A program made the translations under genes and the position numbers. From UHGV virus genome UHGV-1366990: DNA of 64,000 bases; one strand, given 5' to 3'. Each line of letters starts with the position of its first letter. The stretch's first letter is position 1. Shown piece after piece: positions 2,916 through 55,373 of the stretch. The notes beneath the pieces were generated by a model. The model did no database searches and was not told the origin of the DNA. It saw nothing but the letters and a program-made list of their open reading frames with translations. Source of the stretch: a virus.

Positions 2916-2940
2916 AAAATCGATCCTTGCAAAAAGAAAG

Positions 2941-2980
2941 GGGAACGGGCTAATAATAACCCATTCCCCTTTATTGAAGG
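2941..2980 (-). terminator. intrinsic terminator hairpin (ggggaa..attcccc) with T-runs on both sides
   Basis: Stem-loop followed by ttcttttt on minus strand, tttatt on plus. Confidence 0.4.
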
Positions 2981-3201: not shown

Positions 3202-4437
3202 TCAGCGTTTCAAGAGTGTCATGAGGTTGACGCTGCTGGACTTCGGCTTGTCCTCAACCTTGCGCACAGGCATCTTCAGGTTTGTGTAGACCTCGGACGG
3301 TTCCCAGCGCGTACCCTTTTGCAGGTGCCAGATATGTAGAGGAACACCAGTCTCAAAGAACACAGGCATCTTCCACTTCTGGACGCCTGGAACGTGCCCT
3401 GTAGGAGCCTTTTCACATAACAGGGTATCTGGCAGCCAGAGCGAACGGGCTTCCCAGAGCGCTGCGCAGGAGTATTCAGGCCAGACGCGTTCCATGTAGT
3501 CTATCTCATCCCAGGTACGCTCTGCGTCCCACCCGATGTAACGGGTATTCTTCAGTCGGAAGAATTTCTTCAGCCAACAAGCACCGGAGGTTTCAAAGTT
3601 CAGGCGGTTGATGAACGTCAGGTGCCCGAACTCAGCCACACAATCCTGGAACGCCTGCTCAAGGTCGGCCTCAAGGATGTCACACTCTTCATCCGTGATA
3701 GGACAACCGTTGATCTTTTTCTTCCCGTGTTTAGTCACCCAATCGTCACGGTTGGACAAGAACGCCGCGCCATTACGGTTGGACTCGCTTCCATCACGAT
3801 CACGCAGCATGAAGCCAGGGACGTCAATGGTGTATTCGTTCCCGAAGACCATGTTCAGGGCTTCCAGGAAGTTCCAGGCGCTCAGGCGACCGAAGTATTT
3901 CCAGGACATCGCCGTGTCCCACAGCTGGGTGAATTGTTCTGTCTTATCGATGCACACCAACATCCCACGGAAAGCGTCATATTGAGTACGGCCAGCCAGC
4001 CAGTCAATATAGGACTGAACACACGGGATCATCTTGGACTTGCGGTAGCGACAGTCGGTATCGAATCGCATGCGATCAAAGTTCAGATTATACCAATCAG
4101 AGAAGCGCTGCATCTCTTCTTTGGACTGGGGTGGTACAGGGAACTCACTGTAGATCGTCCACGGCCCGACAGCGTTATAGCAACAACCCCACAGGAATGC
4201 CATCCAGATCTTGCGCTCGACTTTCTGTTCGAGACTGATGCCTTCAGTGACTTCGATCGCATAGTCCATCAGACGCATCTGCTGGTTGTGCTCTTCTGTG
4301 TAGGACAGCGCCTCCACCCAAGCCTTGAGCAGGTACATACGATTCTCAGGCTTGCGATAATCAACAGCCAGGTCAATCGGGTACTTCCATTCAGTCGGAG
4401 GCTTATAGCCCGTCGGCATTTTAGATAAATGATGCAT
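3202..4437 (-). CDS. hypothetical protein (411 aa); candidate nucleic-acid modification enzyme
   Basis: Long ORF with GAGGAAG RBS; Trp/Cys-rich; no motif I can name with certainty. Confidence 0.6.
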   Translation of the reverse strand: MHHLSKMPTGYKPPTEWKYPIDLAVDYRKPENRMYLLKAWVEALSYTEEHNQQMRLMDYAIEVTEGISLEQKVERKIWMAFLWGCCYNAVGPWTIYSEFPVPPQSKEEMQRFSDWYNLNFDRMRFDTDCRYRKSKMIPCVQSYIDWLAGRTQYDAFRGMLVCIDKTEQFTQLWDTAMSWKYFGRLSAWNFLEALNMVFGNEYTIDVPGFMLRDRDGSESNRNGAAFLSNRDDWVTKHGKKKINGCPITDEECDILEADLEQAFQDCVAEFGHLTFINRLNFETSGACWLKKFFRLKNTRYIGWDAERTWDEIDYMERVWPEYSCAALWEARSLWLPDTLLCEKAPTGHVPGVQKWKMPVFFETGVPLHIWHLQKGTRWEPSEVYTNLKMPVRKVEDKPKSSSVNLMTLLKR

Positions 4438-4798
4438 CTTTCGCTTCCTCTTCAGGAGCCACAGCTTCAGGCTCAGGAGCCAGCTGAATATCTTCCGGCT
4501 TCACGAACCCCATCGGACGTTCCCACATATCGACAAAGCGACGGTCAGCGGTCACGAACCACAGACGGGCTGCAGTGTGGGTCTTACCCGAGATGAACAT
4601 CTGAGCATTCGTCTGGGTACGGAACGGAGCAGCCTGCAACCACTTGCCGAAGTCTTTGGACGACGGATTGGCATTCAGCTGGAACTGAGGGATGACGCAG
4701 TTCTTTTCAGGAATCAGGCGCACGGCAGTAATGTGCTTGGCGTTTCCAGTGTAGTCAATCGCAACAGCCACAGCATCGCGAGGGATTTGAATTTTCAT
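4421..4798 (-). CDS. hypothetical protein (126 aa from MKIQIPRD)
   Basis: ORF 4421..4933; internal ATG at 4798 overlaps upstream stop (ATGA coupling). Confidence 0.5.
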   Translation of the reverse strand: MKIQIPRDAVAVAIDYTGNAKHITAVRLIPEKNCVIPQFQLNANPSSKDFGKWLQAAPFRTQTNAQMFISGKTHTAARLWFVTADRRFVDMWERPMGFVKPEDIQLAPEPEAVAPEEEAKDASFI

Positions 4799-4992
4799 TT
4801 TGGTTCCTTGAATATTTTGTAACCAGCAGCGCCGATAGACATCACCGCGCCAATACAGTACATCACAGTCACGTTCAACTTCTCTGAGGTTGTTAAGTCC
4901 AGAGGGGTGAAATGATAGGCTAGGGCAGTACACATTGAAACGGCTGCCATAACCAGACCAATGAACAACAGATAATTAGACAACCGTTTCAT
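4795..4992 (-). CDS. small membrane protein (65 aa)
   Basis: Two hydrophobic helices; ATG at 4992 with AAGGGG upstream (track start is GTG 4998). Confidence 0.45.
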   Translation of the reverse strand: MKRLSNYLLFIGLVMAAVSMCTALAYHFTPLDLTTSEKLNVTVMYCIGAVMSIGAAGYKIFKEPK

Positions 4993-4994
4993 GA

Positions 4995-6593
4995 TCACCC
5001 CTTCTTCATCAGGTCAAGGAGAGAGCGCGACGCTGCCTTCGTTGCTTCTGGCTGGGCGCTCGCCTTGGTTTTAGTTTTGGATGCCTTCTGCGGCTTCTCA
5101 GGCACTCTGTGCGCCAAAGGGTTGCTACCCTTAATCTTGCGCAACATTGGTGTGGTGTCGCAATATTTTTGAAACTCTTCTTTGGACAACCCTCTCAATC
5201 CAACAAAATCTATAATAAAACTACCAATAAAGTGGAGAGGGGCATCGAAGAATTTCAGTATATTCCAACCAACTGCCTTTACACCATTTTCATTCGCTGC
5301 CTTTGCAATGAACAACTCATTCTGAGAGTCTGGTTCAAGTTCGTATCCGATGGAAGCGTACTCACCCATGATCTTGACGTGATCCTTGGTGTATTGTTCA
5401 TTTCTTCCCCAGCCAGTGTCCTTCGCCGCCTTACCAGAACGACCGATGATACGTTTGTCGTAATCTTCCCGCGCTTGGTAAATAAAGGAGATGAATGCCA
5501 TGTTGTTGAACCCCAAGTCCTGGTGTACGAACTCGGGACGCCATCGATGACTCTGCATCATAGGTTCCCCCTCCAAGATGATAGTTGCATCTTTGAACTT
5601 TATTTTGAGATACTTCAACAACGAATTGGCCATCTCAGAAGACTTGAGAGTGGAGTGTATGAAATCCATGGAAGTCCATGATGCTAGACCTGATTTGTTG
5701 GACACTGTATACTTGCCGATGAACACCAGATTGATTTCCTTGAACCAAAACCCAACCTGGATCATCTTCTTGTCGAATTCGTATTCTATGAGTTCTGGCT
5801 CATATTTGGTTCTCAACCACTCAAGGAATTGAACGACACGAGTCCCCTTTCCCGTTCCACTTGTCCCGCGAATAACGACAATACCCGGCGTCACGCTAGA
5901 ATTTATCATAGTCATAAAACGTTTGTCCTCTTTGGGAATCCAACCATCTTTAAACATGGCGATCATATTACGAAAGACGCTCTCATCGCCCTTTAGATTA
6001 CGATACTCTGTGTCCAGTAGTTTAGAATACCACAATCCGATAGATTTGTAACCACATCCTCGTTTTGGCATACTGGTAGGATTCACAGTACCGCCGTTGT
6101 TCACCCATCTATCATAGATCCTACGGGCGTCCTTCCAAACCCACCAATAACCATTTGAAACCATGAATGGGTAGGGAGAATTACCCCTGTTCTCCTTTAT
6201 TGATTTTATTACACGTTCCCGGTATTCTGGATCATCCCAAGGATTTATACCAGATTTGTATTTCTTGCCAGTCCTAGCCAACGCCGCCTTAAATTGGTTT
6301 GGTATGATAGAATTGTCTCCTCCCAATTTCAGGTTCAGACATAACGGGTCCGACAGCAACTCATCCGTAACAATAATAGACTCCAGGTCGGATGCTTCCA
6401 ACCTGGTTTCAAACTTTTCTATTATCGTCTTTGAAAATTCAGAAGCGGGATGGGATTCCAACAACCTTTTGATGATCACACCAGAACCCATATAGGGGTC
6501 TTGTTCAGGAGCACATGAACAAGACCGAATCCCGACGTAGAATCTACCTGTGGGAACATGAGTTATCCTATAGGTGTAATGGTAACGAATCAC
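4995..6593 (-). CDS. GIY-YIG nuclease-like N-terminal domain fused to P-loop NMP-kinase-like domain
   Basis: 532 aa; N-term YTYRITHVPTGRFYVGIRS (GIY-YIG-like); later GTSGTGKGT (GxxGxGKGT P-loop); GTG start overlapping upstream stop. Confidence 0.6.
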   Translation of the reverse strand: MIRYHYTYRITHVPTGRFYVGIRSCSCAPEQDPYMGSGVIIKRLLESHPASEFSKTIIEKFETRLEASDLESIIVTDELLSDPLCLNLKLGGDNSIIPNQFKAALARTGKKYKSGINPWDDPEYRERVIKSIKENRGNSPYPFMVSNGYWWVWKDARRIYDRWVNNGGTVNPTSMPKRGCGYKSIGLWYSKLLDTEYRNLKGDESVFRNMIAMFKDGWIPKEDKRFMTMINSSVTPGIVVIRGTSGTGKGTRVVQFLEWLRTKYEPELIEYEFDKKMIQVGFWFKEINLVFIGKYTVSNKSGLASWTSMDFIHSTLKSSEMANSLLKYLKIKFKDATIILEGEPMMQSHRWRPEFVHQDLGFNNMAFISFIYQAREDYDKRIIGRSGKAAKDTGWGRNEQYTKDHVKIMGEYASIGYELEPDSQNELFIAKAANENGVKAVGWNILKFFDAPLHFIGSFIIDFVGLRGLSKEEFQKYCDTTPMLRKIKGSNPLAHRVPEKPQKASKTKTKASAQPEATKAASRSLLDLMKKG

Positions 6594-6895
6594 ACAGCAT
6601 CCTCAATACGCCAGCTCACGCCGCCCAGCCAAGGTGCCCAGAACACAGCAACCTGTGGGCGGCCATTCTCTTCAAACTTAACTTTATACTGGTCGTCGAA
6701 GTTATAGAAGATTTCATCTGCTTCAGAGCGCTGGCCGATCTTCACCAGTACATCATGAAGAGCCTTGGCTGCACCGATAGGAGTTGGAGTCTCCTGCTGA
6801 CGAATGAAGTTGTTCACATAGATAATCACACCATCCATGTCGCTATCACCGGAATGCTTGTCTGGGGTTTCCCCAAACTTGGATTGTTCTTGCAC
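6590..6895 (-). CDS. hypothetical protein (101 aa)
   Basis: ORF with AGGAGGA RBS before GTG start. Confidence 0.45.
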   Translation of the reverse strand: MQEQSKFGETPDKHSGDSDMDGVIIYVNNFIRQQETPTPIGAAKALHDVLVKIGQRSEADEIFYNFDDQYKVKFEENGRPQVAVFWAPWLGGVSWRIEDAV

Positions 6896-6904
6896 GATGT
6901 CCTC

Positions 6905-7684
6905 CTATCGGACGTATTGATAATGACTAATCAGGCGGTTAACCACTTCAACAATATTGTGGTTCAGGAAGTCGAAGTGATTCTGGCCTTCTACTGGTTT
7001 AATATAAAGCATGTCTTCCGAATTCGAAAGATCCAGTTTTTCATAATTGCCCTGAGGAACAAAGATGACAAAGATGTTGTTCAGGCCGCACGGCTCGACA
7101 TACTTCGGATTGTCATCAATCAGGACATCGCCAGCCAGCAGATGCTTTTCGTCGGTGCTGACAAACCCGTTGAAGATACCAGGGAACTTATCATAGACAA
7201 ACTGACGCTTGCTGCGCTCGTGTTCCGGCTCGCACTTCGACACCGCGATGAATTCAACATTGTCGAAATCTTCAAGCAAGATATCCTTCAGATTTACCAG
7301 GAACTCGTAAGCGCCGGGGAGCGGGTTCATCTTGGCGTACAAGTCAGGGCGACGCCACCAGTCCATAGGATCGTTACCGCTTGGCACACGTTGTTTGTGC
7401 ATCCCCAATTGGACTTCATGGTATAGCCACGCCGGATGCGCACGTTCACGCATCAGAATAGCCAGGTCGCCAGCATGGGACATATAACACTCTTTAGTGA
7501 TCGGCTGGAACTGGTATGACTTATGTTCCCCCGTAGCGATAGCAGCGGCGGCGATGTTCTCTTCGTTAAACCACTGCACCCAAGGGGAGAGGCTGTCGAC
7601 CAACGTCAGGTCAACATCCACGAGGACGCGATACAGGCCACCGACCTTTGATTTCATATCATAGATACAAACCAGGTTGTTCAT
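6905..7684 (-). CDS. HAD-superfamily hydrolase-like protein (putative nucleotidase/phosphatase)
   Basis: 259 aa; N-terminal VLVDVDLTLVD matches HAD motif I (DxDx[TV]L); GAGGA RBS. Confidence 0.5.
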   Translation of the reverse strand: MNNLVCIYDMKSKVGGLYRVLVDVDLTLVDSLSPWVQWFNEENIAAAAIATGEHKSYQFQPITKECYMSHAGDLAILMRERAHPAWLYHEVQLGMHKQRVPSGNDPMDWWRRPDLYAKMNPLPGAYEFLVNLKDILLEDFDNVEFIAVSKCEPEHERSKRQFVYDKFPGIFNGFVSTDEKHLLAGDVLIDDNPKYVEPCGLNNIFVIFVPQGNYEKLDLSNSEDMLYIKPVEGQNHFDFLNHNIVEVVNRLISHYQYVR

Positions 7685-8022
7685 TTGTCTTCCTCAACTT
7701 TATCGTAGCCTGTAGCAACACACTGTTCTTCGGTACAATCTGCATACAGAACGACGGAGGCCTGCTTCACGTAGGTGATGCAGTGGTAAGTTTCGTCTTC
7801 CTGGACGGAATCGTCATAGTTGCAGACAGTTTGGAGCGGACCTGGGGTAGTGTTGTCCAGTGCTGCATGCGCCTTGATGGTGTCTTCCATCTTGGACACG
7901 GCCTGTTCATTGGTGAACGTCGGCGCGTCAAGGTCTACAGTAGACGCAACGTCCAGAAGGGTGGAACACGCAGTGGTAGAGAAAGCCAGAGCGCACACCA
8001 GAAGAATCTTATTGAGTTTCAT
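7681..8022 (-). CDS. putative secreted lipoprotein
   Basis: Signal peptide MKLNKILLVCALAFSTTAC with lipobox-like Cys; AGGTGA RBS before ATG at 8022. Confidence 0.5.
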   Translation of the reverse strand: MKLNKILLVCALAFSTTACSTLLDVASTVDLDAPTFTNEQAVSKMEDTIKAHAALDNTTPGPLQTVCNYDDSVQEDETYHCITYVKQASVVLYADCTEEQCVATGYDKVEEDK

Positions 8023-8084
8023 TTCAATCACCTGTTTGTCAAAGGGTTAACAGGGGGAATTATATCCCCCTTTGGTTTATTGAA

Positions 8085-11084
8085 TCAACCTTTCTTCTTT
8101 TGCATCATGGCAAGAAGGTTCACACGGCGCTTGTGTGACCAGCCGACCACGTCGAGGATAGACTGAATCGGATCAATGAAGGACTTCTCAAAGGCCGCCT
8201 GATAATCCACCCATTTGCCCAGACCAAGCTCCTCAGGGAAGAACTCAGGATATGCAAAGTAGTTCTGCCCAAACGGGTTGCCCGGCTTCAACAACACCAT
8301 CTGTACCTTATCACCCGACTCGATCATCGGTAGACCCAGATCTTCGTTCTTCTCAACCAGACGGTTGTAGCCCACACACGCCTTGGCAGCAAAATGAGCA
8401 CCAGAGATGAACGATCCGTCAGCAGCCACACACTTCTCTATGTCGGACACGCCGGAAGCCTTGGCGATATCGTCTACAGAGAGTTTCATGTACTCCTCTT
8501 TGTACTGGGAGATGAGCGCCTGTACTTCCTCTTCGGTGCCGAGTAGGATCTTCTCATAACACTTGACAAGACGCTCACGACACCATTCCGGCGTGGTGGA
8601 CTTGCGGGCTTCCAGACCTTTGAACTTGATCTTCGGCTTCTCGTACTTGATACCCTCACTGTCGTACACGGCCATGGCATACATCTTCTTGGCTCGCCAT
8701 ACAGCGGCTGACGCAATGACCTCACGCTCCCATACCATACGCTGTTCAAATCCGTTCATGGTGTTACACAGAAGCTGTGCCCACTCATTGGTCTTCGGCT
8801 GGTAGTTGTCTTTGATCCATTGGTCGATATTATCAACCATAGCATGATGGTCAGTAACATCAGGCCACAACTGCTTGACAAGACGCTCAATGCAGATGTA
8901 GTTGGAGTCGGTATCCCCTGCGATGACGAAGTCCTGGCCTGTTGTACCACACAGCTTGTTCAGATAGTCATCAGTGTAACGCTTGTTCCACTTGTTGATC
9001 AGCTGACCGGATGTGGTGATGGCTTCGGCAATGTTGAGGTTGAAGTACTCTTTGAACCAGACGTTCGAGATAGCGCCATAACCTGCGTTCATCAAGATCT
9101 TCAGACCTTGCTGTAGGGTATCTTGAGCGACGCCCAGGTCTTCCCACTTCTTCATCACTTCGGTCAGGGCATCAAGATCAATGTTCTTGTGCTCTTCATA
9201 CCACTCTGGGTCATAATAGCGAGACTTCATGGCAGACTCAAGATGGAAGTCACCCTTCGACATCTCTTTACACCAGCCAGCCCACTGCTCATACTTCAGA
9301 CCCTTAGCTTTCTCTACTTTACGGTCGCTGTAGATACCACGCATGATTTCAGACAGGAACGACATCTTCTCGTTGCTGAAGAATTGAACGTTCGGCGTGA
9401 ACGACACGTTGTAGCGGCGCAGGGTTTCAAAGTGGAACTCACCCAGGGCAACCAACTCATCAACAACCTGCAGGCGTTCGTCAACCGCACGCAACAGCTT
9501 GTCGTGAAGGGCTTTCATCAACCGACGTTTGTGCATCGGCGTTGCCATGTTATTCATCTGAGCAGCCAGCTCTTCACACATAGCCTCAATAATCTCACGG
9601 CGCTGGTGTTTGTCGCCAACGATAGTCTCAGGACCGAGGTTGTATTGCTGAATGATGTGAGGATACAGGGAGTTCAAATCTTCCGAGAAGACCCAGAAGT
9701 AGATTCCTGGTGTCACATCCATGACGTATGCACCCTCAAAGTCGGTCGGACCATCGTATACACGCTGGATCTTAGGCACTATGCCCTTCTCATACAGACG
9801 ATAGTAGCACATGGCCAGCCACGGAGCCACAGTGCCCAGACCGTCTTCATAGTTGGACTTGGTGCGGTAGGCCAGGACGAACATCAGCTGGAGCAGGCGC
9901 AGCTTCTGTTCAAGTCGCCATACCAGCTTAACGTCTTTGATACCATATCGGGTGTGTTTACAGTAGTCGTTGAAGTACAGATCAAAGAGCGACTTTCTCT
10001 CACTGTAGTCCATCTTCTTCTCACCCAGCTCACAATACGCAATCCAGTCAAGAGAGTAGCGTTCACGGGTGGTGTACGTGTGTTTCTTGTAGATCTGCAT
10101 ATAATCGAGCATAGGGCAACCCACGAACTGATACGTCGTGATATCGCCCTTCTTATCGCGAATGATACGCTTCTTAATGATACCCCAAGGACTGAGGCGC
10201 GACGTTTCAGCCTCACCCAGAACCTGATTCATGCGCTCAACGAGATAAGGGCTATCGAACGTCTCAATGTTCCAGCCTGTCCAGCCATCAAACTGACGCT
10301 GTGACCAGAAGTCTAGGAAAGATCGCAGCAGATCTTGTTCGGTGGTGAACTCCTGATAAACAACCTCAAGACCGCCGATCTCTTTGTCTTCGGTGTCATA
10401 GGCGAATTTGTTACGATCTTTGGCACAGGGCATACCCCAGACCATGAACTTATTGGTCGCCATATCCTGAAGCTGGATCAGGGTAATGGGGAACGCCGCA
10501 TTCATGTCTTGGGTGATCTTGCCGTTGCTGTCAATGATAGGGAACTGATCAGTGACGTTGTTGCTGATGAAAGAACCAGGGAAGTGCTCACGGATGAAGT
10601 CATGGTTGGCCAGTACCTGCTGATGGAAGCGGCGAATGCGCGCCTCATTCCCTTTGAACGTCTGCTGCTCAATGGTTGGGTGAGGGAATGGACCTTTGGT
10701 CATCTTTCCATCTTTCCACCCGGCGGAGAACACTTCGATATCGAGGTTAGCAATATGGATGTTGGAATAATCCGGCTCAATCTTTCCAGGAAAGCTATGG
10801 GCGATGAACTGGTATGCATAATCGGTCTGCCCGTAAATGGCAGCACCCTGGACTTCCTTGTACTCTTCAAGATAGTTGTCAGCGTCACGCATGGAAGGGA
10901 ACTGCTTGGCTACCAGGGGTTCATTGAGAAGGCCGACCTTTTCAACATTTGAATAGTCAGCCGTGGGTAAATAGAGAGTGGGTTCGAATTTCTTTTTCAA
11001 CAGACGGCGATTACCCATGTCATCTGCAATTCGAATCAACAGGTCATTGCCCCTGCGGGCAACGTTCGTATAGAAAACGGTCAT
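8085..11084 (-). CDS. gp43: DNA polymerase, family B (T4 gp43-like)
   Basis: 999 aa; N-terminus and overall layout parallel T4 gp43 (exonuclease then polymerase region); GGAG RBS. Confidence 0.93.
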   Translation of the reverse strand: MTVFYTNVARRGNDLLIRIADDMGNRRLLKKKFEPTLYLPTADYSNVEKVGLLNEPLVAKQFPSMRDADNYLEEYKEVQGAAIYGQTDYAYQFIAHSFPGKIEPDYSNIHIANLDIEVFSAGWKDGKMTKGPFPHPTIEQQTFKGNEARIRRFHQQVLANHDFIREHFPGSFISNNVTDQFPIIDSNGKITQDMNAAFPITLIQLQDMATNKFMVWGMPCAKDRNKFAYDTEDKEIGGLEVVYQEFTTEQDLLRSFLDFWSQRQFDGWTGWNIETFDSPYLVERMNQVLGEAETSRLSPWGIIKKRIIRDKKGDITTYQFVGCPMLDYMQIYKKHTYTTRERYSLDWIAYCELGEKKMDYSERKSLFDLYFNDYCKHTRYGIKDVKLVWRLEQKLRLLQLMFVLAYRTKSNYEDGLGTVAPWLAMCYYRLYEKGIVPKIQRVYDGPTDFEGAYVMDVTPGIYFWVFSEDLNSLYPHIIQQYNLGPETIVGDKHQRREIIEAMCEELAAQMNNMATPMHKRRLMKALHDKLLRAVDERLQVVDELVALGEFHFETLRRYNVSFTPNVQFFSNEKMSFLSEIMRGIYSDRKVEKAKGLKYEQWAGWCKEMSKGDFHLESAMKSRYYDPEWYEEHKNIDLDALTEVMKKWEDLGVAQDTLQQGLKILMNAGYGAISNVWFKEYFNLNIAEAITTSGQLINKWNKRYTDDYLNKLCGTTGQDFVIAGDTDSNYICIERLVKQLWPDVTDHHAMVDNIDQWIKDNYQPKTNEWAQLLCNTMNGFEQRMVWEREVIASAAVWRAKKMYAMAVYDSEGIKYEKPKIKFKGLEARKSTTPEWCRERLVKCYEKILLGTEEEVQALISQYKEEYMKLSVDDIAKASGVSDIEKCVAADGSFISGAHFAAKACVGYNRLVEKNEDLGLPMIESGDKVQMVLLKPGNPFGQNYFAYPEFFPEELGLGKWVDYQAAFEKSFIDPIQSILDVVGWSHKRRVNLLAMMQKKKG

Positions 11085-11163
11085 GTAATTCTCCAGGTTA
11101 TCCGTGCCGTTAGCACGTGGGCATATTTAACCATAGAGCCATTCATTGACCAAGGAGTTTATT

Positions 11164-11736
11164 ATGGCAATCCCCCTCGTTGGTATGATCCCAGGGGTGC
11201 TCAAGCAACTCTGGAACCTCGGGACTGATTTGATCCAATATAAGCGGGAAGTTGTACAGGCCAAACACGACGTCAAGCTGGAGGCCATCAAGTCCTCCTC
11301 AGATTGGGAGCTGTCTAAGATTACCGAAGTCGGCGGGTCTTGGAAAGACGAATTTTGGACTATCGTGTTGGCCATACCCGCCATCCTCGTCATGACTGCT
11401 CCGGTTGTGGAACTGATTCTGTTCCCTGGTGAGTATCATAAAGGGGATTTCATCAAAGCAGTAATCGGTGGCCTTCAGGCACTAGATACCGCACCTGAAT
11501 GGTATACCTATTCGTTATTGACAGCAATTAGTGCATCATTCGGTATCAAAGGCTACAACCACTACAAAAGCAACAGGCGAAAAGCCCAAGCTATGGATGC
11601 TCTCAAGCAATTTGGGGTTCGGGTCGTACAGAAAGATCCCACTGTTGTTACTCAGTCGGGTTCTCCCGATCTTGAGTCTGCTCCCCCAGCTGGGTCTACT
11701 GCGACCTCTGGTGCGTGGCCTGATCTGAAGAAATAA
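11164..11736 (+). CDS. membrane protein, unknown function
   Basis: ORF 11146..11736; ATG at 11164 with AAGGAG RBS; central TM helix; divergent from polymerase gene. Confidence 0.5.
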   Translation: MAIPLVGMIPGVLKQLWNLGTDLIQYKREVVQAKHDVKLEAIKSSSDWELSKITEVGGSWKDEFWTIVLAIPAILVMTAPVVELILFPGEYHKGDFIKAVIGGLQALDTAPEWYTYSLLTAISASFGIKGYNHYKSNRRKAQAMDALKQFGVRVVQKDPTVVTQSGSPDLESAPPAGSTATSGAWPDLKK

Positions 11737-11778
11737 GTTCAAGGGGAGGAAACTCCCCTTTCTTTTGGTGTTTAGGGA

Positions 11779-11991
11779 ATGAATGTGGTAAACAAGAGAT
11801 TGCTCGTCACCCAGGGCGGGGCGACGATAGTACGCGGAAGGATCTATGAACAAACACAGCTGGGAGATCATAAGACGCGCCTGACTGTTAAGGCTCCAGA
11901 TGGTGGTTGGCCGACAAAGGTGATTGTCCCAGACGGTCTCATAGAACGAGGATCGGCAACGTACAAGGGAGCAGAGTTCAAAATTTATTAA
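11779..11991 (+). CDS. hypothetical protein (70 aa)
   Basis: ORF only; weak RBS. Confidence 0.35.
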   Translation: MNVVNKRLLVTQGGATIVRGRIYEQTQLGDHKTRLTVKAPDGGWPTKVIVPDGLIERGSATYKGAEFKIY

Positions 11992-12009
11992 AATATTTAT
12001 TGAATAAAG

Positions 12010-12038
12010 TTTACTTCTTCAATAACTGGTGTATACTT
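12010..12038 (+). promoter_or_regulatory. sigma70-type early promoter (-35 TTTACT, 17 nt, -10 TATACT) with conserved leader
   Basis: One of three near-identical ~90-nt elements (also ~47132 and ~56394) ending in GAAGGAnCTATATCATG. Confidence 0.4.
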
Positions 12039-12081
12039 CTAATTGTAGTACGAACAACAATCTGAAGAGAAGGACTATATC

Positions 12082-12633
12082 ATGACAATGCCAAAAACTG
12101 CTGTCCGTATCGCTGTTGAGCCTCTGTTGTCGCAGGCCGAAGAAGCTGCCGAGCAGTACGCGAACAAAATCATCAAGAACGTGATGGACGATCTAGCCGC
12201 CAACGGCTGGGATCTTCAGAAGTGCGCCCCTTGGCCATCAACTGTTGGCGTCAGAATGGGACATCACGATTACCATCGGATGAAGGCAAAGCAGTCTTTG
12301 TATATGAGCCTGACCGCCGACAATAACCCGCCGAACCGCTCTTATCAAGTGGGTGCGCCTAACATCGTCAAGGCCGATCCAGAGCGCCAGCGTCTGTTCA
12401 TCAAGGAAGCCCGTTGCAACGCTGCCCATCAGTATGAATCTTTCATTTGCAAACTGGAAGACAAGATTGGTAGCCACAGCGCGGCTGTGCTGGACGGTTC
12501 TCACATTTGGGGGCATTCAATCCTGACCGTGACTACCCCGGAAGGGATCCAGCGCTGGAAGACCCAGACGATCATCAACGTCTCTAAGCTGGGCAAACTC
12601 TTTAACCAATATCCAACTCGCAAGGTGAAATGA
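12082..12633 (+). CDS. hypothetical protein (183 aa)
   Basis: ORF downstream of conserved promoter/leader; GAAGGA RBS. Confidence 0.55.
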   Translation: MTMPKTAVRIAVEPLLSQAEEAAEQYANKIIKNVMDDLAANGWDLQKCAPWPSTVGVRMGHHDYHRMKAKQSLYMSLTADNNPPNRSYQVGAPNIVKADPERQRLFIKEARCNAAHQYESFICKLEDKIGSHSAAVLDGSHIWGHSILTVTTPEGIQRWKTQTIINVSKLGKLFNQYPTRKVK

Positions 12634-12658
12634 AGAAAGGGGCGTTAAGCCCCTTTTC
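12634..12658. terminator. bidirectional intrinsic terminator (aaaggggcgttaagcccctttt)
   Basis: Perfect GC stem flanked by A-run and T-run between convergent genes. Confidence 0.5.
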
Positions 12659-13117
12659 TTATTCTTCCCAGAAGTCTTCGTCGTCCCCGACAGCAGCCAG
12701 TTCCGTGTCCAGTTCTTCATCGGTAAACGGTGGCAGCACCCCGTTCTGAATCAGATAATCCATCTCATCGTCTTCCAGCTGCAGGTCGGTGGCAATATAC
12801 AGCGCTCCACTGCCTTCTTCGTCCGTCTCGATGCTGTATGAAGTGTATGGCACCCCATTCACTGTAATGATGATAGAGGTCGGATCCTTGGGATCTACGT
12901 GCGCCTCGAACGGCACACCATCAATCGGTGCATCTTCCAGGAAGGTGGCAAGAGCTACGGCGGCGCGGACAACATCAGTGCCTTCAACGCCCGCATAGAT
13001 CTCTTCCGCGCCTGTCTCTTCACGATCAAACAGCTCAATCGTGATACCGTCTTGAACACCAGTCCATACAGGGATGTCATTGGTGTATTCTGATTCAAAC
13101 AATTTGGAGGTTGGCAT
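12659..13117 (-). CDS. highly acidic protein (152 aa)
   Basis: ORF with GAGGAAC RBS; preceded on minus strand by two CTAAATACCCC late-promoter-like motifs. Confidence 0.55.
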   Translation of the reverse strand: MPTSKLFESEYTNDIPVWTGVQDGITIELFDREETGAEEIYAGVEGTDVVRAAVALATFLEDAPIDGVPFEAHVDPKDPTSIIITVNGVPYTSYSIETDEEGSGALYIATDLQLEDDEMDYLIQNGVLPPFTDEELDTELAAVGDDEDFWEE

Positions 13118-13145
13118 GTTAGGTTCCTCAGTGGGTTAGCCATAT

Positions 13146-13239
13146 GGGGTATTTAGGCAGGCCTGGTTTGTACAGGACGCCTCTAGGAAATATTGGAGGA
13201 AGGTTTCATAGATACCCCACACTGGTTGTATGGGGTATT
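13146..13239 (-). promoter_or_regulatory. two tandem late-promoter-like CTAAATACCCC motifs (minus strand), one with GGGGTAT inverted partner
   Basis: Reverse complement of ggggtatttag at 13146-13156 and 13229-13239; hairpin 13212-13238. Confidence 0.35.
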
Positions 13240-13248
13240 TAGGAGGGA

Positions 13249-14442
13249 TCAGGAAGGGGTGAATTCGTTTACAGGTATTGCTTCGGGGATAGCCAGTTCA
13301 GGGCATGCTGCCTTCATCGGATCGATGTATGGCTTGCTACCCACAATCCAGAACAGAGTGTTCTCGTTGAGCAACTCGGGCTTGTGTTGCTGAACCCAGG
13401 TCATGACCTTGCCTTCATAGCGAGGATGCAACTCAATATCGCCCCACTGATATTCCATCAGGTCATTGTAACGAACCCAATTAGTAGTATGAAGATCCCA
13501 ATGGTGTACCTCAAAGCGAGGAAGCACGACCTCTGGCTCTTCCTTCTGCCTGATACCACTTAGGAGGCCAGCCAGCGAAACGCTCTTAGAGGCATGCTGA
13601 AGCTCCTTCTTGCCGTGTACATAGTCTGGGTTGTCGTGATAGCGACGGGTGAAGTCGACAATGTGCGGCAGATTGGCATGTTTGCCGATGATGCGCAGAC
13701 GGCTCTCGATAAAGTCAAGGCGGTTAGGACCGATGCCGATCAGATACACGCGCTTCAGATTAGGCTTCGGGTGCATTGCCAGCCCGGTCAGGATGCTTGT
13801 GCAAGAGTTGCACGATCCGGCTGGGATGATCAGGTCGGTAATGTGATCAGGAATGTTGGCAACCTGCTCGCCACCCAGCATATGGAAGCCAGCGATGCGC
13901 TCAGGAGAATGCGCTGTATGGTCGAGGGTGATACCATACTCCAGATAATACGCCTTTGGATTCTGTTGTTCGATCAACTTCTTACAGCGCGGCTGGATCG
14001 TGCTGTTGTAACCCGATCCGACGAAGTTGAACTCACTACCAAACCAGGCTGACATTGCCACCATTTCATGGTTCATACAGGTGGTGGGTTTGGTCGCTCC
14101 GAGTACAGTGGTTGTCTTACCACCGAAGTGTCGAGAGACTGCTGTCGCCATAGGGGACTGCGGACTACCAACGACAGTACCATGGATGATGTCAGGGGAG
14201 CCTCCGGCCTTGAGGTGCTCAACCATCAACCAGATGGCCTGGCGGAGTTTGCTGCCGTTGATGCCCTGCTGTCCATTTGCATAATTGGACAGCGGCGCAA
14301 AATAATCTTCACGCTTGAACCAGACCTGCTGATTGGTTTCGGGGTTGACGACAAGTTCGCACGGGGTGTGCTTGTAGAGATAATCTTCCCAATGGACCAG
14401 GTTGCGGTCGAGGGAAAGGGTATCGAAGATGGTCATGTTCAT
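13249..14442 (-). CDS. PLP-dependent enzyme, fold-type II (ACC deaminase / D-cysteine desulfhydrase-like)
   Basis: 397 aa; KREDYFAPLSNYANGQQGINGSKLRQ resembles KREDL..GGNKxRKLE PLP-lysine motif; AGGAGA RBS. Confidence 0.6.
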   Translation of the reverse strand: MNMTIFDTLSLDRNLVHWEDYLYKHTPCELVVNPETNQQVWFKREDYFAPLSNYANGQQGINGSKLRQAIWLMVEHLKAGGSPDIIHGTVVGSPQSPMATAVSRHFGGKTTTVLGATKPTTCMNHEMVAMSAWFGSEFNFVGSGYNSTIQPRCKKLIEQQNPKAYYLEYGITLDHTAHSPERIAGFHMLGGEQVANIPDHITDLIIPAGSCNSCTSILTGLAMHPKPNLKRVYLIGIGPNRLDFIESRLRIIGKHANLPHIVDFTRRYHDNPDYVHGKKELQHASKSVSLAGLLSGIRQKEEPEVVLPRFEVHHWDLHTTNWVRYNDLMEYQWGDIELHPRYEGKVMTWVQQHKPELLNENTLFWIVGSKPYIDPMKAACPELAIPEAIPVNEFTPS

Positions 14443-15537: not shown

Positions 15538-15626
15538 TGGCGGAAGGTGAAGGATTCGAACCTTCGGGGGCTAAAAGCCCCACTCGATTAGCAGTCGAGT
15601 CCCTTAAACCTCTCGGGCAACCTTCC
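15538..15626 (-). tRNA. tRNA-Ser (anticodon GCU), type II with long variable arm, CCA encoded
   Basis: Hand-folded: acceptor GGAAGGT/ACCTTCC, anticodon stem CTCGA/TCGAG, loop CTGCTAA, variable stem GGGGC/GCCCC, T-arm GAAGG-TTCGAAT-CCTTC. Confidence 0.85.
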
Positions 15627-15847
15627 AATTTGGACGGGCTTCACACCCGATTGAGCATTTGATCTGCCGTAGCCCAACTCCCCGCGCTTCTCAGCGCCGA
15701 TTGGTTAACTGGCGACCAGTGCCTTCTGGTTCGATCTCCTGGAACTTTACAGGCTTTGCGCCCGACCATTTCTGGAAGTTGGGGCATCGTTTCCGATGCG
15801 GAGTCATCCCCATTTTATACACAGCTGGCTGCAACGCTTACTGTGTT

Positions 15848-15891
15848 TGGTGTGAGTGGATGGATTCGAACCACCGCGCTGTTACACTCAC
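15848..15891 (-). other. tRNA-like minihelix: acceptor-like stem plus canonical T-arm and encoded CCA, no D or anticodon arm
   Basis: GTGAGTG...GGTGG-TTCGAAT-CCATC-CACTCAC-A-CCA on minus strand. Confidence 0.25.
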
Positions 15892-16148
15892 ATTTGGTCT
15901 GCCGCTGTGTGCTGGGCCACGCTCGAGGACATCGGCCATCCTTCCTCAGCTAATCCACGCAGCGGTAGATTTGTATCAGAGTGTCCGGTGTAGCAACCCG
16001 TGAGGTGCGCACTACTGTAGCCTCTACACTCTGAATTTGGTGGGCGCTACTATCGTCGTCTTCGGATTCCGTTCGGCTATTGGACAGAGGCTTGGAGCTT
16101 GTCGGTCGCGTACTTTATGCCTATTCACTTTCGTTCACACCCATTGTC

Positions 16149-16224
16149 TGGCGACGATGGCAGGACTTGAACCTGCGACATACGGTTTAACAGACCGCCG
16201 TTCTACCGACTGAACTACATCGTC
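16149..16224 (-). tRNA. tRNA-Asn (anticodon GUU), CCA encoded
   Basis: Hand-folded: acceptor GACGATG/CATCGTC, D-arm GTTC-AGTCGGTA-GAAC, anticodon loop CTGTTAA, T-arm GCAGG-TTCAAGT-CCTGC. Confidence 0.85.
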
Positions 16225-16395
16225 TTGCAAATCACTATACCATATAAAGTTTATTGAACAAACATTTATTTTACAACAAACTGTATTGGCGGGGTCTGAG
16301 GCTTTTCACCTCACCTGCTGGGTTTGGCCGCCCAGCCGTTCTCTATGAGGATTCACTGTCCGGACAGCTATCCATTAAACTATCGCCCCTCAATA

Positions 16396-16472
16396 TGGTG
16401 ATCCTGATTGGGTTTGAACCAATGACCAATGAATTATGAGTTCACTGCTCTAACCGACTGAGCTACAGGACC
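16396..16472 (-). tRNA. tRNA-Met (anticodon CAU; initiator/elongator/Ile-lysidine not distinguished), CCA encoded
   Basis: Hand-folded: acceptor GGTCCTG/CAGGATC, D-arm GCTC-AGTCGGTTA-GAGC, anticodon loop CTCATAA, T-arm ATTGG-TTCAAAC-CCAAT. Confidence 0.85.
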
Positions 16473-53796: not shown

Positions 53797-53822
53797 TCGA
53801 ACAGTTGTCCTTAACCCTGACA

Positions 53823-53848
53823 AACCCCGCTTCGGCGGGGTTTTTATT
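53823..53848 (+). terminator. intrinsic terminator AACCCCGCTTCGGCGGGGTTTTTATTT after capsid gene
   Basis: Perfect hairpin and T-run. Confidence 0.6.
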
Positions 53849-53900
53849 TGTTCATATTATCGAACAGGTTATACTAGATACCATATGGAGGAGAATAATT

Positions 53901-55373
53901 ATGTATCAGGTAATCTGTAGTGTCTGCCATGAACAGTTCAAAGCATCCAGGAAAGATAAGAAATTTTGTTCAGATGCTTGCAAGACCTTCGCATCGAACA
54001 CCCTAAAGAACCTCCCGGAAGGTTTCCTTGAAGCAGTGAATGAATTGTCTGACGAGGAATCATATCGCCAATTTTTCTACAAATATATGTTTACCAAGAA
54101 CAACAAATTGGATATCCAAAAATGCAAATCTGAACTGCTTATGAAGCACATCAATGTAGACCTTTTAGCGTTCGCCAATACCCACAACACCCTACAAGAT
54201 TTGGCTTGTAAAGTCACAGCTTGGCTGTACAATAGAACCGTGAAAATATGCCCGGTGTGTTCCAAGGAAACCAACTTTTATATCAATAATAAAGATTACA
54301 GAACATATTGTTCTGAAGAATGTTATCAGGTTTCTATGTGTAAAGGTGGGATTGGTCGGAAAGCCATAGAGACTTCGAATATATCCAAATACGGGAGCTG
54401 CTCCACACTACAATTACCTGGTGTGAGGGAGAAGGCGTTGGCAACGTTACAAGAACGTTATGGTGTTGACAACCCTATGAAAAACTCGAACATACTAAAA
54501 CGTGCGTTGTTCAGCAATGGTTCTATCAGGAACAAGAAATCTTCTTATGAAAAGGAAATATCCGAGTTTCTCACCTCAATGGGAGTTGTAAACACTGTTT
54601 CTGATTACAGTATATTATCCGGTAAACAACTGGATATCTATTGCCCTGAACACAAATTGGCGATTGAATTTAATGGTCTGTACTGGCATTCAGAAGTTTT
54701 TAAAGAGAAACATTATCACCTGGAAAAGACTGAAATATGTGAATCTCAGGGTATCCAGTTGGTCCACATCTGGGAAGATGAATGGGTTGAGAAACAGGAA
54801 GTGGTCAAATCTCTTCTGAAAGCTAAACTTGGCATTAAAACGCCTGCGTCATATGCTCGCCAACACAAAGTCGTTTGGGGGAATATAAGCGGCTTGAGGG
54901 AGTTTTTAGACAACCACCACATACAAGGTTCCGTTTCTTCCACCCACCATTTATCGTTAATTGACAAGAGTGGGGTCATACAAGCCGTGATGCTATTCAC
55001 TAAAAGGAAAGATGGCCTGGAATTAGTCAGATTTGCCTCTAATGATTGCCACGGAGCATTCAGTAAACTTCTTTCACACTTCAGAAGAAAATTTGCCGGC
55101 ACCAAAATCTATTCCTTTGGGGATAGGTGTGTTGTAAGCAGGTTGTCCAACATTTACCTATCCCACGGATTCGTAGAAGAGGAAGTACAGAAGCCAGACT
55201 ACAAATATCACAAGCCTGGCACATTTATGCGTGAGCACAAATTCGGTTTCAGAAAAGGTTCATTTGCTCGCATGGGGTATGACGTAGAAGGCAAAACAGA
55301 AAGCCAGTTAGCAACCGAAGCCGGGCTGGTCAGGATTTGGAATTGTGGACTGATCAAATATGTCTTGAACTAA
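53901..55373 (+). CDS. free-standing homing-endonuclease-like protein (Zn-ribbon N-terminus plus Vsr/DUF559-like nuclease core)
   Basis: 490 aa from ATG with GGAGGAG RBS; CxxC..C motifs; LAIEFNGLYWHSE resembles Vsr FVDGCFWH; inserted right after capsid gene. Confidence 0.6.
   Translation: MYQVICSVCHEQFKASRKDKKFCSDACKTFASNTLKNLPEGFLEAVNELSDEESYRQFFYKYMFTKNNKLDIQKCKSELLMKHINVDLLAFANTHNTLQDLACKVTAWLYNRTVKICPVCSKETNFYINNKDYRTYCSEECYQVSMCKGGIGRKAIETSNISKYGSCSTLQLPGVREKALATLQERYGVDNPMKNSNILKRALFSNGSIRNKKSSYEKEISEFLTSMGVVNTVSDYSILSGKQLDIYCPEHKLAIEFNGLYWHSEVFKEKHYHLEKTEICESQGIQLVHIWEDEWVEKQEVVKSLLKAKLGIKTPASYARQHKVVWGNISGLREFLDNHHIQGSVSSTHHLSLIDKSGVIQAVMLFTKRKDGLELVRFASNDCHGAFSKLLSHFRRKFAGTKIYSFGDRCVVSRLSNIYLSHGFVEEEVQKPDYKYHKPGTFMREHKFGFRKGSFARMGYDVEGKTESQLATEAGLVRIWNCGLIKYVLN

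What the first reader, a model, noticed from the sequence alone, without database searches (positions are those of the whole stretch)
3202..14442. Candidate DNA-hypermodification enzyme set around the DNA polymerase
Within 11 kb on the minus strand are a P-loop NMP-kinase-like protein (4995..6593), a fold-type II PLP-dependent enzyme with a KRED...GSKLR lysine motif (13249..14442), a HAD-like phosphatase (6905..7684) and a 411-aa uncharacterised enzyme-sized protein (3202..4437). Kinase plus PLP enzyme plus unknown transferase next to replication genes is the combination reported for post-replicative thymidine hypermodification in some large phages. The specific chemistry cannot be inferred from sequence.
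Basis: inference. Interest (0 to 1): 0.6.

Follow-up and report, generated by a model that had tools for sequence, protein, structure and literature searches.

The report
ViI-type thymidine hypermodification genes (known)

Summary
The four ORFs exist at the stated coordinates. The window is an Ackermannviridae phage, 97.5% identical in DNA to Escherichia phage YX22. Three ORFs are orthologues of the Salmonella phage ViI enzymes shown biochemically to make 5-NeOmdU. ORF 3202-4437 is the serine:DNA transferase (Pfam ADDT, 89% identical to ViI gp247, Glu/Cys motif kept). ORF 13249-14442 is the PLP-dependent decarboxylase (91% to gp226, Lys65 invariant, fold type II by predicted-structure search). 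The C-terminal 300 aa of ORF 4995-6593 is a 5-hmdU DNA kinase (Pfam HMUD2, E 4e-156). The HAD protein is an NT5C-type nucleotidase with no demonstrated role in the pathway. The pre-replicative genes (dUMP hydroxymethyltransferase, kinase 1, aGPT-Pplase1) lie outside the window but are present in YX22. The system is already known. One correction: the "kinase" ORF is composite. Its first ~225 aa are a Seg-like GIY-YIG nuclease fused in frame to a kinase allele only 47% identical to ViI gp243. This cassette sits in 29 phage records, has moved between subfamilies, and keeps its fused architecture down to 38% identity in metagenomic phages. I found no discussion of that fusion.

The parts
3202..4437 (-). 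Amino acid:DNA transferase (AADT, also called aGPT-Pplase clade 2). Orthologue of ViI gp247, the serine:DNA transferase that converts 5-phosphomethyl-dU in DNA to O-serinyl-thymidine.
   Evidence: Pfam ADDT PF18724, E 7e-60. 89% identity over all 411 aa to ViI gp247. The motif F-E282-T283-S-G-A-C287-W is at least 97% conserved in 60 homologues. hhalign places it on PaMx11 gp46 E243/T244/C247, with a weak score. Those PaMx11 residues come from PMC11472151.
4995..5918 (-). 5-hmdU DNA kinase 2 domain (HMUD2). This is the C-terminal ~307 aa of the 532-aa ORF, counted from the conserved internal Met226. Walker A is GTSGTGKGT. It is a divergent allele.
   Evidence: Pfam HMUD2 PF18747, E 3.8e-156, aa 236-531 against profile 2-298/298. 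Only 47% identical to ViI gp243. 49 invariant columns, including the P-loop, across 42 family members. The AF2 model is confident over ~235-500, with weak Foldseek matches to guanylate, thymidylate and adenylate kinases. A GAGG plus ATG is conserved at the junction.
5919..6593 (-). Seg-like GIY-YIG nuclease half (aa 1-225). It is fused in frame, with no stop codon, to the kinase. It starts at a GTG that overlaps the stop codon of the upstream gene (GTGA).
   Evidence: PHROG 314 'homing endonuclease', E 1e-23, aa 3-227. Pfam SegE_GIY-YIG is sub-threshold. tblastn hits Seg-type and other annotated homing endonucleases of T4-like phages. Conserved motifs are YxYR..GRxYVG, YxGSG and NLxxGGxN. Model pLDDT is 74-94 over aa 1-90. 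The start context was read.
5121..6588 (-). Mobile cassette: the nuclease half plus the first ~265 codons of the kinase. It replaces the ViI-type kinase allele as one block.
   Evidence: Homology to RPN242 and ViI is lost exactly between window 5120 and 6589. The cassette covers at least 80% of the query in 29 phage records of several genera. It is 92-97% identical to Kuttervirus UTK0004 while the flanks are 64-88%.
13249..14442 (-). PLP-dependent (fold type II) decarboxylase. Orthologue of ViI gp226, which converts O-serinyl-thymidine to 5-NeOmdU. It lacks 27 N-terminal residues that ViI has.
   Evidence: 91% identity to ViI gp226. Lys65 (GSKLR) aligns with ViI K92 and M6 gp52 K36 and is invariant in 56 homologues. 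The AF2 model has pLDDT 92. The top Foldseek PDB hits are D-cysteine desulfhydrase, ACC deaminase and 1j0a, E down to 2.5e-11. The Pfam PALP hit is sub-threshold at 31.4 bits against a cutoff of 35.
6905..7684 (-). NT5C-type HAD 5'(3')-deoxyribonucleotidase-like protein. It is a possible nucleotide-pool accessory and is not a demonstrated pathway member.
   Evidence: Pfam NT5C, E 9.7e-9, 35.8 bits against a cutoff of 24.8. 76% identical to ViI Vi01_194. The HAD motif I (D-V-D-L-T) and the 'LIDDNP' motif are visible in the sequence. An NT5C gene also lies near the fused kinase and ADDT in two distant metagenomic phage contigs.
8085..11084 (-). Family B DNA polymerase. This is context. It is uninterrupted here, whereas it is split by introns or homing endonucleases in relatives.
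   Evidence: Pfam DNA_pol_B_exo1 and DNA_pol_B. The RPN242 and LIMEstone1 annotations show split polymerase genes.
6590..6895 (-). DUF7254 protein, function unknown, in the same co-directional gene string.
   Evidence: Pfam DUF7254, E 4e-52. Syntenic with ViI Vi01_195.
7681..8031 (-). DUF7292 protein, function unknown, first gene of the string after the polymerase.
   Evidence: Pfam DUF7292, E 2e-53.
4421..4992 (-). Two small conserved ORFs (4795-4992, 65 aa, hydrophobic; 4421-4798, 125 aa) between the kinase and the AADT gene. Function unknown.
   Evidence: PHROG 4514 and 4163. Annotated as two CDS in YX22 and RPN242.
2937..2972 (-). Intrinsic-terminator-like hairpin (16-bp stem plus T tract) that closes the gene string running from DUF7292 to the AADT gene.
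   Evidence: Consensus scan. This is a pattern match only.

Best explanation
The window carries the post-replicative half of the ViI-type thymidine hypermodification pathway of Ackermannviridae phages. In the established scheme, 5-hmdUMP is made from dUMP by a phage thymidylate-synthase homologue and is incorporated into DNA in place of T. The genes for that stage lie outside the window. In the DNA, a fraction of the 5-hmdU is phosphorylated by a P-loop 5-hmdU DNA kinase (here the HMUD2 domain, 4995-5918). The amino acid:DNA transferase (3202-4437) then attacks C6 with its catalytic cysteine, expels phosphate and adds the side-chain oxygen of free L-serine, giving O-serinyl-thymidine. The fold-type II PLP enzyme (13249-14442) forms a Schiff base with the serine amine and removes CO2, giving 5-(2-aminoethoxy)methyl-2'-deoxyuridine (5-NeOmdU). 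That base protects the DNA from many restriction enzymes. What was shown here is family membership, orthology, retained catalytic residues and fold. The chemistry is inferred by orthology from ViI biochemistry. The presence of the base in this phage's virion DNA is also inferred. The NT5C-like protein may help shape the dNTP pool, which is inference only. The kinase is encoded as the C-terminal part of a mobile GIY-YIG nuclease-kinase cassette.
For: DNA identity is 90-97.5% to sequenced Ackermannviridae. Pfam gives ADDT at E 7e-60 and HMUD2 at E 3.8e-156. Identity to ViI gp247, gp226 and gp243 is 89%, 91% and 47%, in the same gene order as ViI. The ViI activities were reconstituted with purified proteins (PMC8989533; PMC5889632). 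The AADT Glu282/Thr283/Cys287 motif is conserved (residues from PMC11472151). PLP Lys65 is invariant, and the fold is type II. The kinase P-loop and 49 invariant residues are intact. The 97.5%-identical phage YX22 carries the remaining genes: a TS homologue 77% identical to ViI's, an HMUD1 kinase at 88% and an HMUDK_hel/gp160 homologue at 83%. 5-NeOmdU was measured by LC-MS in Kuttervirus phages and in a Taipeivirus (bioRxiv 10.64898/2026.05.19.726188).
Against: There is no chemical data for this phage, and none for any Aglimvirinae phage in the papers I read. The kinase allele is only 47% identical to the tested ViI gp243 and is fused to a nuclease, so its activity is inferred from family conservation. 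The dUMP hydroxymethyltransferase, kinase 1 and aGPT-Pplase1 are not in the window, so their presence in this genome rests on a close relative. The PLP enzyme lacks 27 N-terminal residues that ViI has, although most family members are similarly short.
Confidence: 0.9

Rival explanations
1. The enzyme families are the same but the final base is different. For example, the transferase could append another amino acid, the product could keep its carboxylate, or the modified fraction and sequence context could differ because of the divergent nuclease-fused kinase.
For: AADT family members use different nucleophiles: glycine in M6 and PaMx11, serine in ViI, putrescine in PhiW-14. The kinase allele is only 47% identical to ViI gp243. 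The modified fraction already varies between genera, about 40% in ViI against 16% in phiHS2.
Against: The transferase and the decarboxylase are 89% and 91% identical to the ViI enzymes, with all conserved residues kept. The kinase step creates the same 5-PmdU intermediate in every pathway studied.
Confidence: 0.06
2. The proteins are ordinary metabolic enzymes, as many GenBank records label them (threonine dehydratase or ammonia-lyase, guanylate kinase, hypothetical protein). On this view they act on free metabolites, not on DNA.
For: Database names such as 'threonine ammonia lyase' and 'guanylate kinase' appear for the orthologues. The closest solved folds are small-molecule enzymes.
Against: Those names are transferred from fold-level similarity at about 12-16% identity. 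The direct orthologues in ViI act on DNA substrates in vitro. The specific Pfam families ADDT and HMUD2 match at very strong E-values.
Confidence: 0.01
3. The nuclease-fused HMUD2 kinase in this phage is a non-functional passenger of a selfish homing endonuclease. On this view phosphorylation is done only by the other kinase (the HMUD1/gp67 type) encoded elsewhere in the genome.
For: ViI has two kinases, and both phosphorylate 5-hmdU DNA in vitro, so one could be redundant. The cassette behaves as a mobile element.
Against: The kinase part is the best conserved part of the fusion: 88% against 74% for the nuclease half between the window and KpS110. It keeps all 49 family-invariant residues. 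It stays intact down to 38-39% identity in distant phages, where it sits directly beside ADDT.
Confidence: 0.03

Closest known systems
Salmonella phage ViI (Kuttervirus) 5-NeOmdU pathway: gp243/gp67 kinases, gp247 serine:DNA transferase, gp226 PLP decarboxylase (Lee et al. 2018 PNAS, PMC5889632; Lee et al. 2021 NAR, PMC8989533)
   Same: The gene order around the DNA polymerase is the same. The transferase is 89% identical and the decarboxylase 91% identical. The kinase belongs to the same Pfam family (HMUD2). The NT5C-like, DUF7254 and DUF7292 neighbours are the same.
   Different: The kinase allele is 47% identical and is fused to a GIY-YIG nuclease half, whereas ViI gp243 is a stand-alone 304-aa protein. 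The decarboxylase lacks ViI's first 27 residues. The phage belongs to the Aglimvirinae-like group, not to Kuttervirus.
Dickeya phage LIMEstone1 ORF186 'F-LimXI' (Adriaenssens et al. 2012, PMC3296691)
   Same: It is the same fused 531-aa ORF, with the cassette 92% identical in DNA.
   Different: It was annotated there only as a free-standing SegB-like GIY-YIG homing endonuclease. Its C-terminal 5-hmdU DNA kinase domain was not mentioned.
Pseudomonas phage M6 and PaMx11 thymidine hypermodification clusters (gp54/gp49 kinase, gp51/gp46 glycine:DNA transferase, gp52 PLP decarboxylase; PaMx11 gp46 and gp47 structures, PMC11472151)
   Same: The logic is the same: kinase, then AADT, then a tailoring enzyme. 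The AADT has the same Glu-Thr-x-x(-x)-Cys catalytic motif. The M6 decarboxylase has the same fold-type II PLP fold, with the Lys aligned.
   Different: Those systems add glycine rather than serine, through an N-C rather than an O-C linkage. They carry extra radical-SAM, FAD or acetyltransferase steps. Pairwise sequence similarity is undetectable by BLASTP.
Free-standing Seg-type GIY-YIG homing endonucleases of T4-like phages (SegA-G)
   Same: The nuclease half has the N-terminal GIY-YIG motif set, is about 225 aa long, sits just upstream of a conserved gene, has a patchy distribution and shows evidence of lateral spread.
   Different: There is no stop codon. The nuclease ORF runs straight into the neighbouring kinase gene, and this fused state is conserved down to 38% identity.

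Membership tests
ViI-type 5-NeOmdU thymidine hypermodification pathway | A 5-hmdU DNA kinase (P-loop, HMUD1 or HMUD2 family) with an intact Walker A motif | tested here: met
   Pfam HMUD2, E 3.8e-156, full profile coverage. GTSGTGKGT and 49 invariant columns are kept. The P-loop kinase fold is supported, weakly.
ViI-type 5-NeOmdU thymidine hypermodification pathway | An amino acid:DNA transferase (aGPT-Pplase clade 2) with the essential Cys and the nearby Glu | tested here: met
   Pfam ADDT, E 7e-60. 89% identical to ViI gp247. E282, T283 and C287 are at least 97% conserved and align with PaMx11 E243, T244 and C247 (weak hhalign score).
ViI-type 5-NeOmdU thymidine hypermodification pathway | A PLP-dependent decarboxylase homologous to ViI gp226 with the Schiff-base lysine | tested here: met
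   91% identity. K65 corresponds to ViI K92 and is invariant in 56 homologues.
ViI-type 5-NeOmdU thymidine hypermodification pathway | A dUMP hydroxymethyltransferase (thymidylate synthase homologue) supplying 5-hmdUTP | tested here: inconclusive
   It is not in the 64-kb window (tblastn). A homologue is present in the 97.5%-identical phage YX22 (77% to the ViI thyA-like protein; Pfam Thymidylat_synt). The rest of this phage's own genome was not available.
ViI-type 5-NeOmdU thymidine hypermodification pathway | The 301-Da nucleoside 5-NeOmdU replacing part of dT in virion DNA | not testable with these tools
   This needs LC-MS of virion DNA. It has been shown for ViI, CBA120, CBA6 and 1.255.O and for phiHS2.
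Fold-type II (tryptophan synthase beta-like) PLP enzymes | The characteristic two-domain fold, with the PLP lysine at the N-terminus of a helix after the first beta-strands | tested here: met
   The AF2 model has pLDDT 92. Foldseek probability is 1.00, with E 2.5e-11 to 1e-7, to D-cysteine desulfhydrase, ACC deaminase, serine/threonine dehydratases and TrpB. In the model K65 sits at the start of helix 63-78. The Pfam PALP hit alone is below the cutoff.
GIY-YIG (Seg-like) homing endonucleases | A GIY-YIG catalytic motif set in an N-terminal domain of about 90 aa | tested here: met
   YxYR...GRFYVG, YMGSG, a conserved Glu and NLKLGGDN are conserved across 9 fused homologues. PHROG 314, E 1e-23. 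The Pfam SegE_GIY-YIG hit is only 15.6 bits against a cutoff of 25. The model is confident over aa 1-92.
GIY-YIG (Seg-like) homing endonucleases | Presence/absence polymorphism and lateral spread with co-conversion of flanking sequence | tested here: met
   The cassette boundaries are sharp at 5120 and 6589. It is found in 29 records scattered over several genera. It is 92-97% identical to a Kuttervirus against 64-88% in the flanks.
GIY-YIG (Seg-like) homing endonucleases | A free-standing gene with its own stop codon | tested here: not met
   The ORF is a continuous 532 codons with no internal stop in the window, LIMEstone1 and KpS110. The metagenomic homologues P0062-P0067 are also called as single fused products.
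GIY-YIG (Seg-like) homing endonucleases | Site-specific DNA cleavage of the endonuclease-lacking allele | not testable with these tools
   This needs an in vitro cleavage assay or co-infection crosses.
HAD superfamily, NT5C 5'(3')-deoxyribonucleotidases | HAD motif I (DxDxT) and the NT5C domain | tested here: met
   Pfam NT5C, 35.8 bits against a cutoff of 24.8. D23-V-D25-L-T27 and LIDDNP are visible in the sequence. The substrate, and any link to the hypermodification pathway, were not tested.

The most novel reading that the evidence does not exclude
The kinase step is carried out by a GIY-YIG nuclease-5-hmdU DNA kinase fusion that is made as one polypeptide. On this reading the fusion has been maintained by selection in unrelated phage lineages, and its nuclease half does more than selfish homing. 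It might, for example, cut the stand-alone kinase allele or incompletely modified DNA of co-infecting competitors. That would couple DNA hypermodification to inter-phage competition and make the nuclease impossible to lose without losing the kinase.
Probability: 0.15. Interest if true: 0.5.

Novelty: already known. Interest (0 to 1): 0.2.

Why it matters
The main finding adds nothing new. Thymidine hypermodification to 5-NeOmdU in ViI-like phages has been known since 2018, and its enzymology since 2021. Reviews already state that the genes are conserved across Ackermannviridae. Practically, it means DNA from this phage will resist many restriction enzymes and may behave oddly in sequencing or cloning. 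The side observation has modest value. A conserved, laterally mobile, in-frame fusion of a GIY-YIG nuclease to a DNA-modification kinase has been annotated so far only as a 'homing endonuclease' or 'hypothetical protein'. It is a neat case of a selfish element welded to a useful gene, and it explains why this phage group carries a kinase allele only 47% identical to ViI's in an otherwise 77-97% identical neighbourhood.

Tried and rejected
- Sequence searches of the transferase, the PLP enzyme and the kinase domain against PDB chains found nothing.
- BLASTP of the transferase against PaMx11 gp46 and M6 gp51 was uninformative.
- A four-sequence MAFFT alignment put the catalytic Cys at C341, which is wrong. 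Family conservation and local hhalign point to C287 instead. Global hhalign failed.
- The supplement that gives the mutated residues of gp247 is not held.
- Iyer et al. 2013, the original computational prediction, which may mention domain fusions, is not held. I therefore cannot exclude that the fusion was noted there.
- Foldseek of the full fusion model gave only weak P-loop kinase hits and nothing for the nuclease or middle region, whose model is poor (pLDDT below 50 for aa 93-218).
- I considered that the middle region (aa 145-232) is a new kinase-associated domain. I set this aside because PHROG 314 (homing endonuclease) covers aa 3-227.
- I looked for the dUMP hydroxymethyltransferase, kinase 1 and aGPT-Pplase1 in the window. 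They are absent.
- I searched the two distant contigs for a PLP enzyme. None lies within 10 kb.
Full report
**Observation.** A family B DNA polymerase gene lies between them at 8085-11084. The 'KRED...GSKLR' motif is present. The 11-kb block is 97.5% identical in DNA to Escherichia phage YX22 and 90-97% identical to many other Ackermannviridae. The closest matches are classified as Aglimvirinae, and 284 phage records match in total. These are real, conserved phage genes.

**Identity of the parts.** Pfam assigns 3202-4437 to ADDT (amino acid:DNA transferase, E 7e-60). It assigns aa 236-531 of 4995-6593 to HMUD2 (5-hmdU DNA kinase 2, E 3.8e-156) and 6905-7684 to NT5C (E 9.7e-9). For 13249-14442 it gives a sub-threshold hit to the PALP family of PLP enzymes. 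Gene order matches Salmonella phage ViI. Direct comparison gives these identities:
- 89% to ViI gp247
- 91% to ViI gp226
- 47% to ViI gp243, kinase part only
- 76% to ViI Vi01_194, the NT5C-like protein

**What is known about those ViI proteins.** Lee et al. showed that ViI and its relatives replace about 40% of thymidine with 5-(2-aminoethoxy)methyl-2'-deoxyuridine. Lysates containing gp67, gp160, gp226, gp243 and gp247 make this base on 5-hmdU DNA (PMC5889632). With purified proteins they then showed three steps (PMC8989533):
- gp67 and gp243 phosphorylate 5-hmdU in DNA.
- gp247 transfers free L-serine through its side-chain oxygen to give O-serinyl-thymidine. This step uses an essential Cys and a neighbouring Glu.
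- gp226 is a PLP-dependent decarboxylase that yields the final base.

A review states that the genes are conserved across the family (PMC11721090). The base has also been measured in a Taipeivirus (bioRxiv 10.64898/2026.05.19.726188).

**Catalytic residues and folds, tested here.**
- *Transferase.* The motif F-E282-T283-S-G-A-C287-W is at least 97% conserved in 60 homologues reaching down to 41% identity. Local profile alignment places it on E243/T244/C247 of PaMx11 gp46, the residues seen at the active site in its crystal structure. The hhalign score is weak because the template profile has only two sequences.
- *PLP enzyme.* Lys65 aligns with ViI K92 and M6 gp52 K36 and is invariant in 56 homologues. 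A confident AlphaFold model (pLDDT 92) matches fold-type II PLP enzymes: D-cysteine desulfhydrase, ACC deaminase including 1j0a, Ser/Thr dehydratases and TrpB, with E down to 2.5e-11. The enzyme lacks ViI's first 27 residues. Most family members are equally short, so this is unlikely to matter.
- *Kinase domain.* It keeps the Walker A motif and all 49 family-invariant positions. It is modelled confidently, with weak structural matches to NMP kinases.

**What is not in the window.** tblastn with the ViI thymidylate-synthase-like dUMP hydroxymethyltransferase, gp67 (kinase 1) and gp160 (aGPT-Pplase1) finds nothing in the 64 kb. By synteny they lie beyond the window's ends. The near-identical phage YX22 has all three, at 77%, 88% and 83% identity to ViI, with Pfam Thymidylat_synt, HMUDK_HMUD1 and HMUDK_hel hits. 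The pathway is therefore very probably complete in this phage. That is inference from a relative.

**The NT5C-like protein.** It has the HAD DxDxT motif and the NT5C domain, and it sits in the same tightly packed co-directional gene string as the kinase and the transferase. That string runs from 8031 down to a strong terminator-like hairpin at 2972-2937. An NT5C gene also lies near the fused kinase and ADDT in two distant, non-syntenic metagenomic phage contigs. No paper I read gives it a role; the word 'nucleotidase' does not occur in PMC8989533. A dNMP-pool function, such as removing dTMP or dUMP, is plausible but untested.

**Correction to the 'kinase' ORF.** The first ~225 aa of ORF 4995-6593 are a Seg-like GIY-YIG nuclease half (PHROG 314, E 1e-23, aa 3-227). 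tblastn also hits Seg-type and other annotated homing endonucleases of T4-like phages, and the conserved GIY-YIG motif set is present. This half starts at a GTG that overlaps the stop codon of the upstream gene, behind a GAGGA. It runs without a stop codon into the kinase.

Relative to RPN242 and ViI, homology is lost exactly between window 5120 and 6589. The nuclease plus the first ~265 codons of the kinase therefore form one replaced block. RPN242 has a different Seg-like gene plus a ViI-type kinase at this site. ViI has the kinase alone.

The same cassette covers at least 80% of the query in 29 phage records. These include most Limestonevirus isolates, Agtrevirus-like coliphages, two Kuttervirus and a Taipeivirus. 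In LIMEstone1 it was named F-LimXI and described only as a SegB-like homing endonuclease. In Kuttervirus UTK0004 the cassette is 92-97% identical to the window while the flanks are 64-88%. That is a clear sign of recent lateral transfer.

The fused ORF is intact in KpS110, at 78% aa identity. Metagenomic homologues at 80, 64, 39 and 38% identity are also intact. The most distant two sit in differently organised phage genomes, directly upstream of ADDT and HMUDK_hel genes. A conserved internal GAGG plus ATG (Met226/228) could also give a separate kinase. Whether the fusion, the kinase alone, or both are made cannot be decided from sequence.

**Interpretation.** This is the known ViI-type 5-NeOmdU system, so the finding is 'already known'. 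The fused, mobile nuclease-kinase allele is a small addition that I did not find discussed. A full-text search for GIY-YIG together with the pathway terms returned nothing relevant. Iyer et al. 2013 could not be read.

The most economical reading is a homing endonuclease that has become welded to the gene it travels with and spreads as a cassette. A functional role for the nuclease half beyond homing is possible but unsupported.

**Scores.** Interest is 0.2. Novelty is 'already known'. The most novel reading that the evidence does not exclude is a bifunctional nuclease-kinase with a role in inter-phage competition, at probability 0.15 and interest 0.5 if true.

Noticed in passing
window 4995-6593 (cassette 5121-6588): The kinase ORF is an in-frame fusion of a Seg-like GIY-YIG nuclease to a divergent HMUD2 kinase (47% identical to ViI gp243). 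The cassette covers at least 80% of the query in 29 phage records, has moved between subfamilies, and keeps the fused architecture down to 38% identity in metagenomic phages. In LIMEstone1 it is annotated only as homing endonuclease F-LimXI.
   Followed up: yes
L012 10001-14670 and L013 10001-14771 (Logan contigs SRR10527393_947, SRR33317134_5860): Two distant uncultivated phage contigs carry the gene order NT5C, ALC-like gene, fused GIY-YIG-HMUD2, ADDT (58% identical), one unassigned ORF, HMUDK_hel. No gp226-like PLP enzyme lies within 10 kb. They may make a different, non-decarboxylated thymidine modification.
   Followed up: partly
window 14361-14442 (N-terminus of the PLP enzyme): There is an in-frame 27-codon length polymorphism. 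The window and YX22 encode a 397-aa enzyme starting MNMTIF. ViI and RPN242 encode 424 aa, with an extra Pro-rich N-terminal stretch after the same 'MN' start.
   Followed up: partly
window 53805-55373 (+): A 522-aa ORF lies just after the major capsid gene in a low-GC patch (42.7% against ~49%). It has sub-threshold hits to the REase_MTES_1575 and DUF559 nuclease families and is 99% identical to an annotated homing endonuclease of RPN242. It is related to Hef-like homing endonucleases and is absent at this position in ViI.
   Followed up: partly
window 8085-11084 (-): The DNA polymerase B gene is uninterrupted here (999 aa). In close relatives (RPN242, PC3, LIMEstone1) it is split by intron or homing-endonuclease insertions.
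   Followed up: partly
window 15538-16472 (-): There are three tRNA genes: Ser-GCT, Asn-GTT and Met-CAT. YX22 and RPN242 annotate only Ser and Met in this region.
   Followed up: no
window 4795-4992 and 4421-4798 (-): Two small conserved ORFs of unknown function lie between the kinase and the transferase in all relatives. One is hydrophobic and annotated as a membrane protein in some records. They could be untested accessory parts of the modification module.
   Followed up: no
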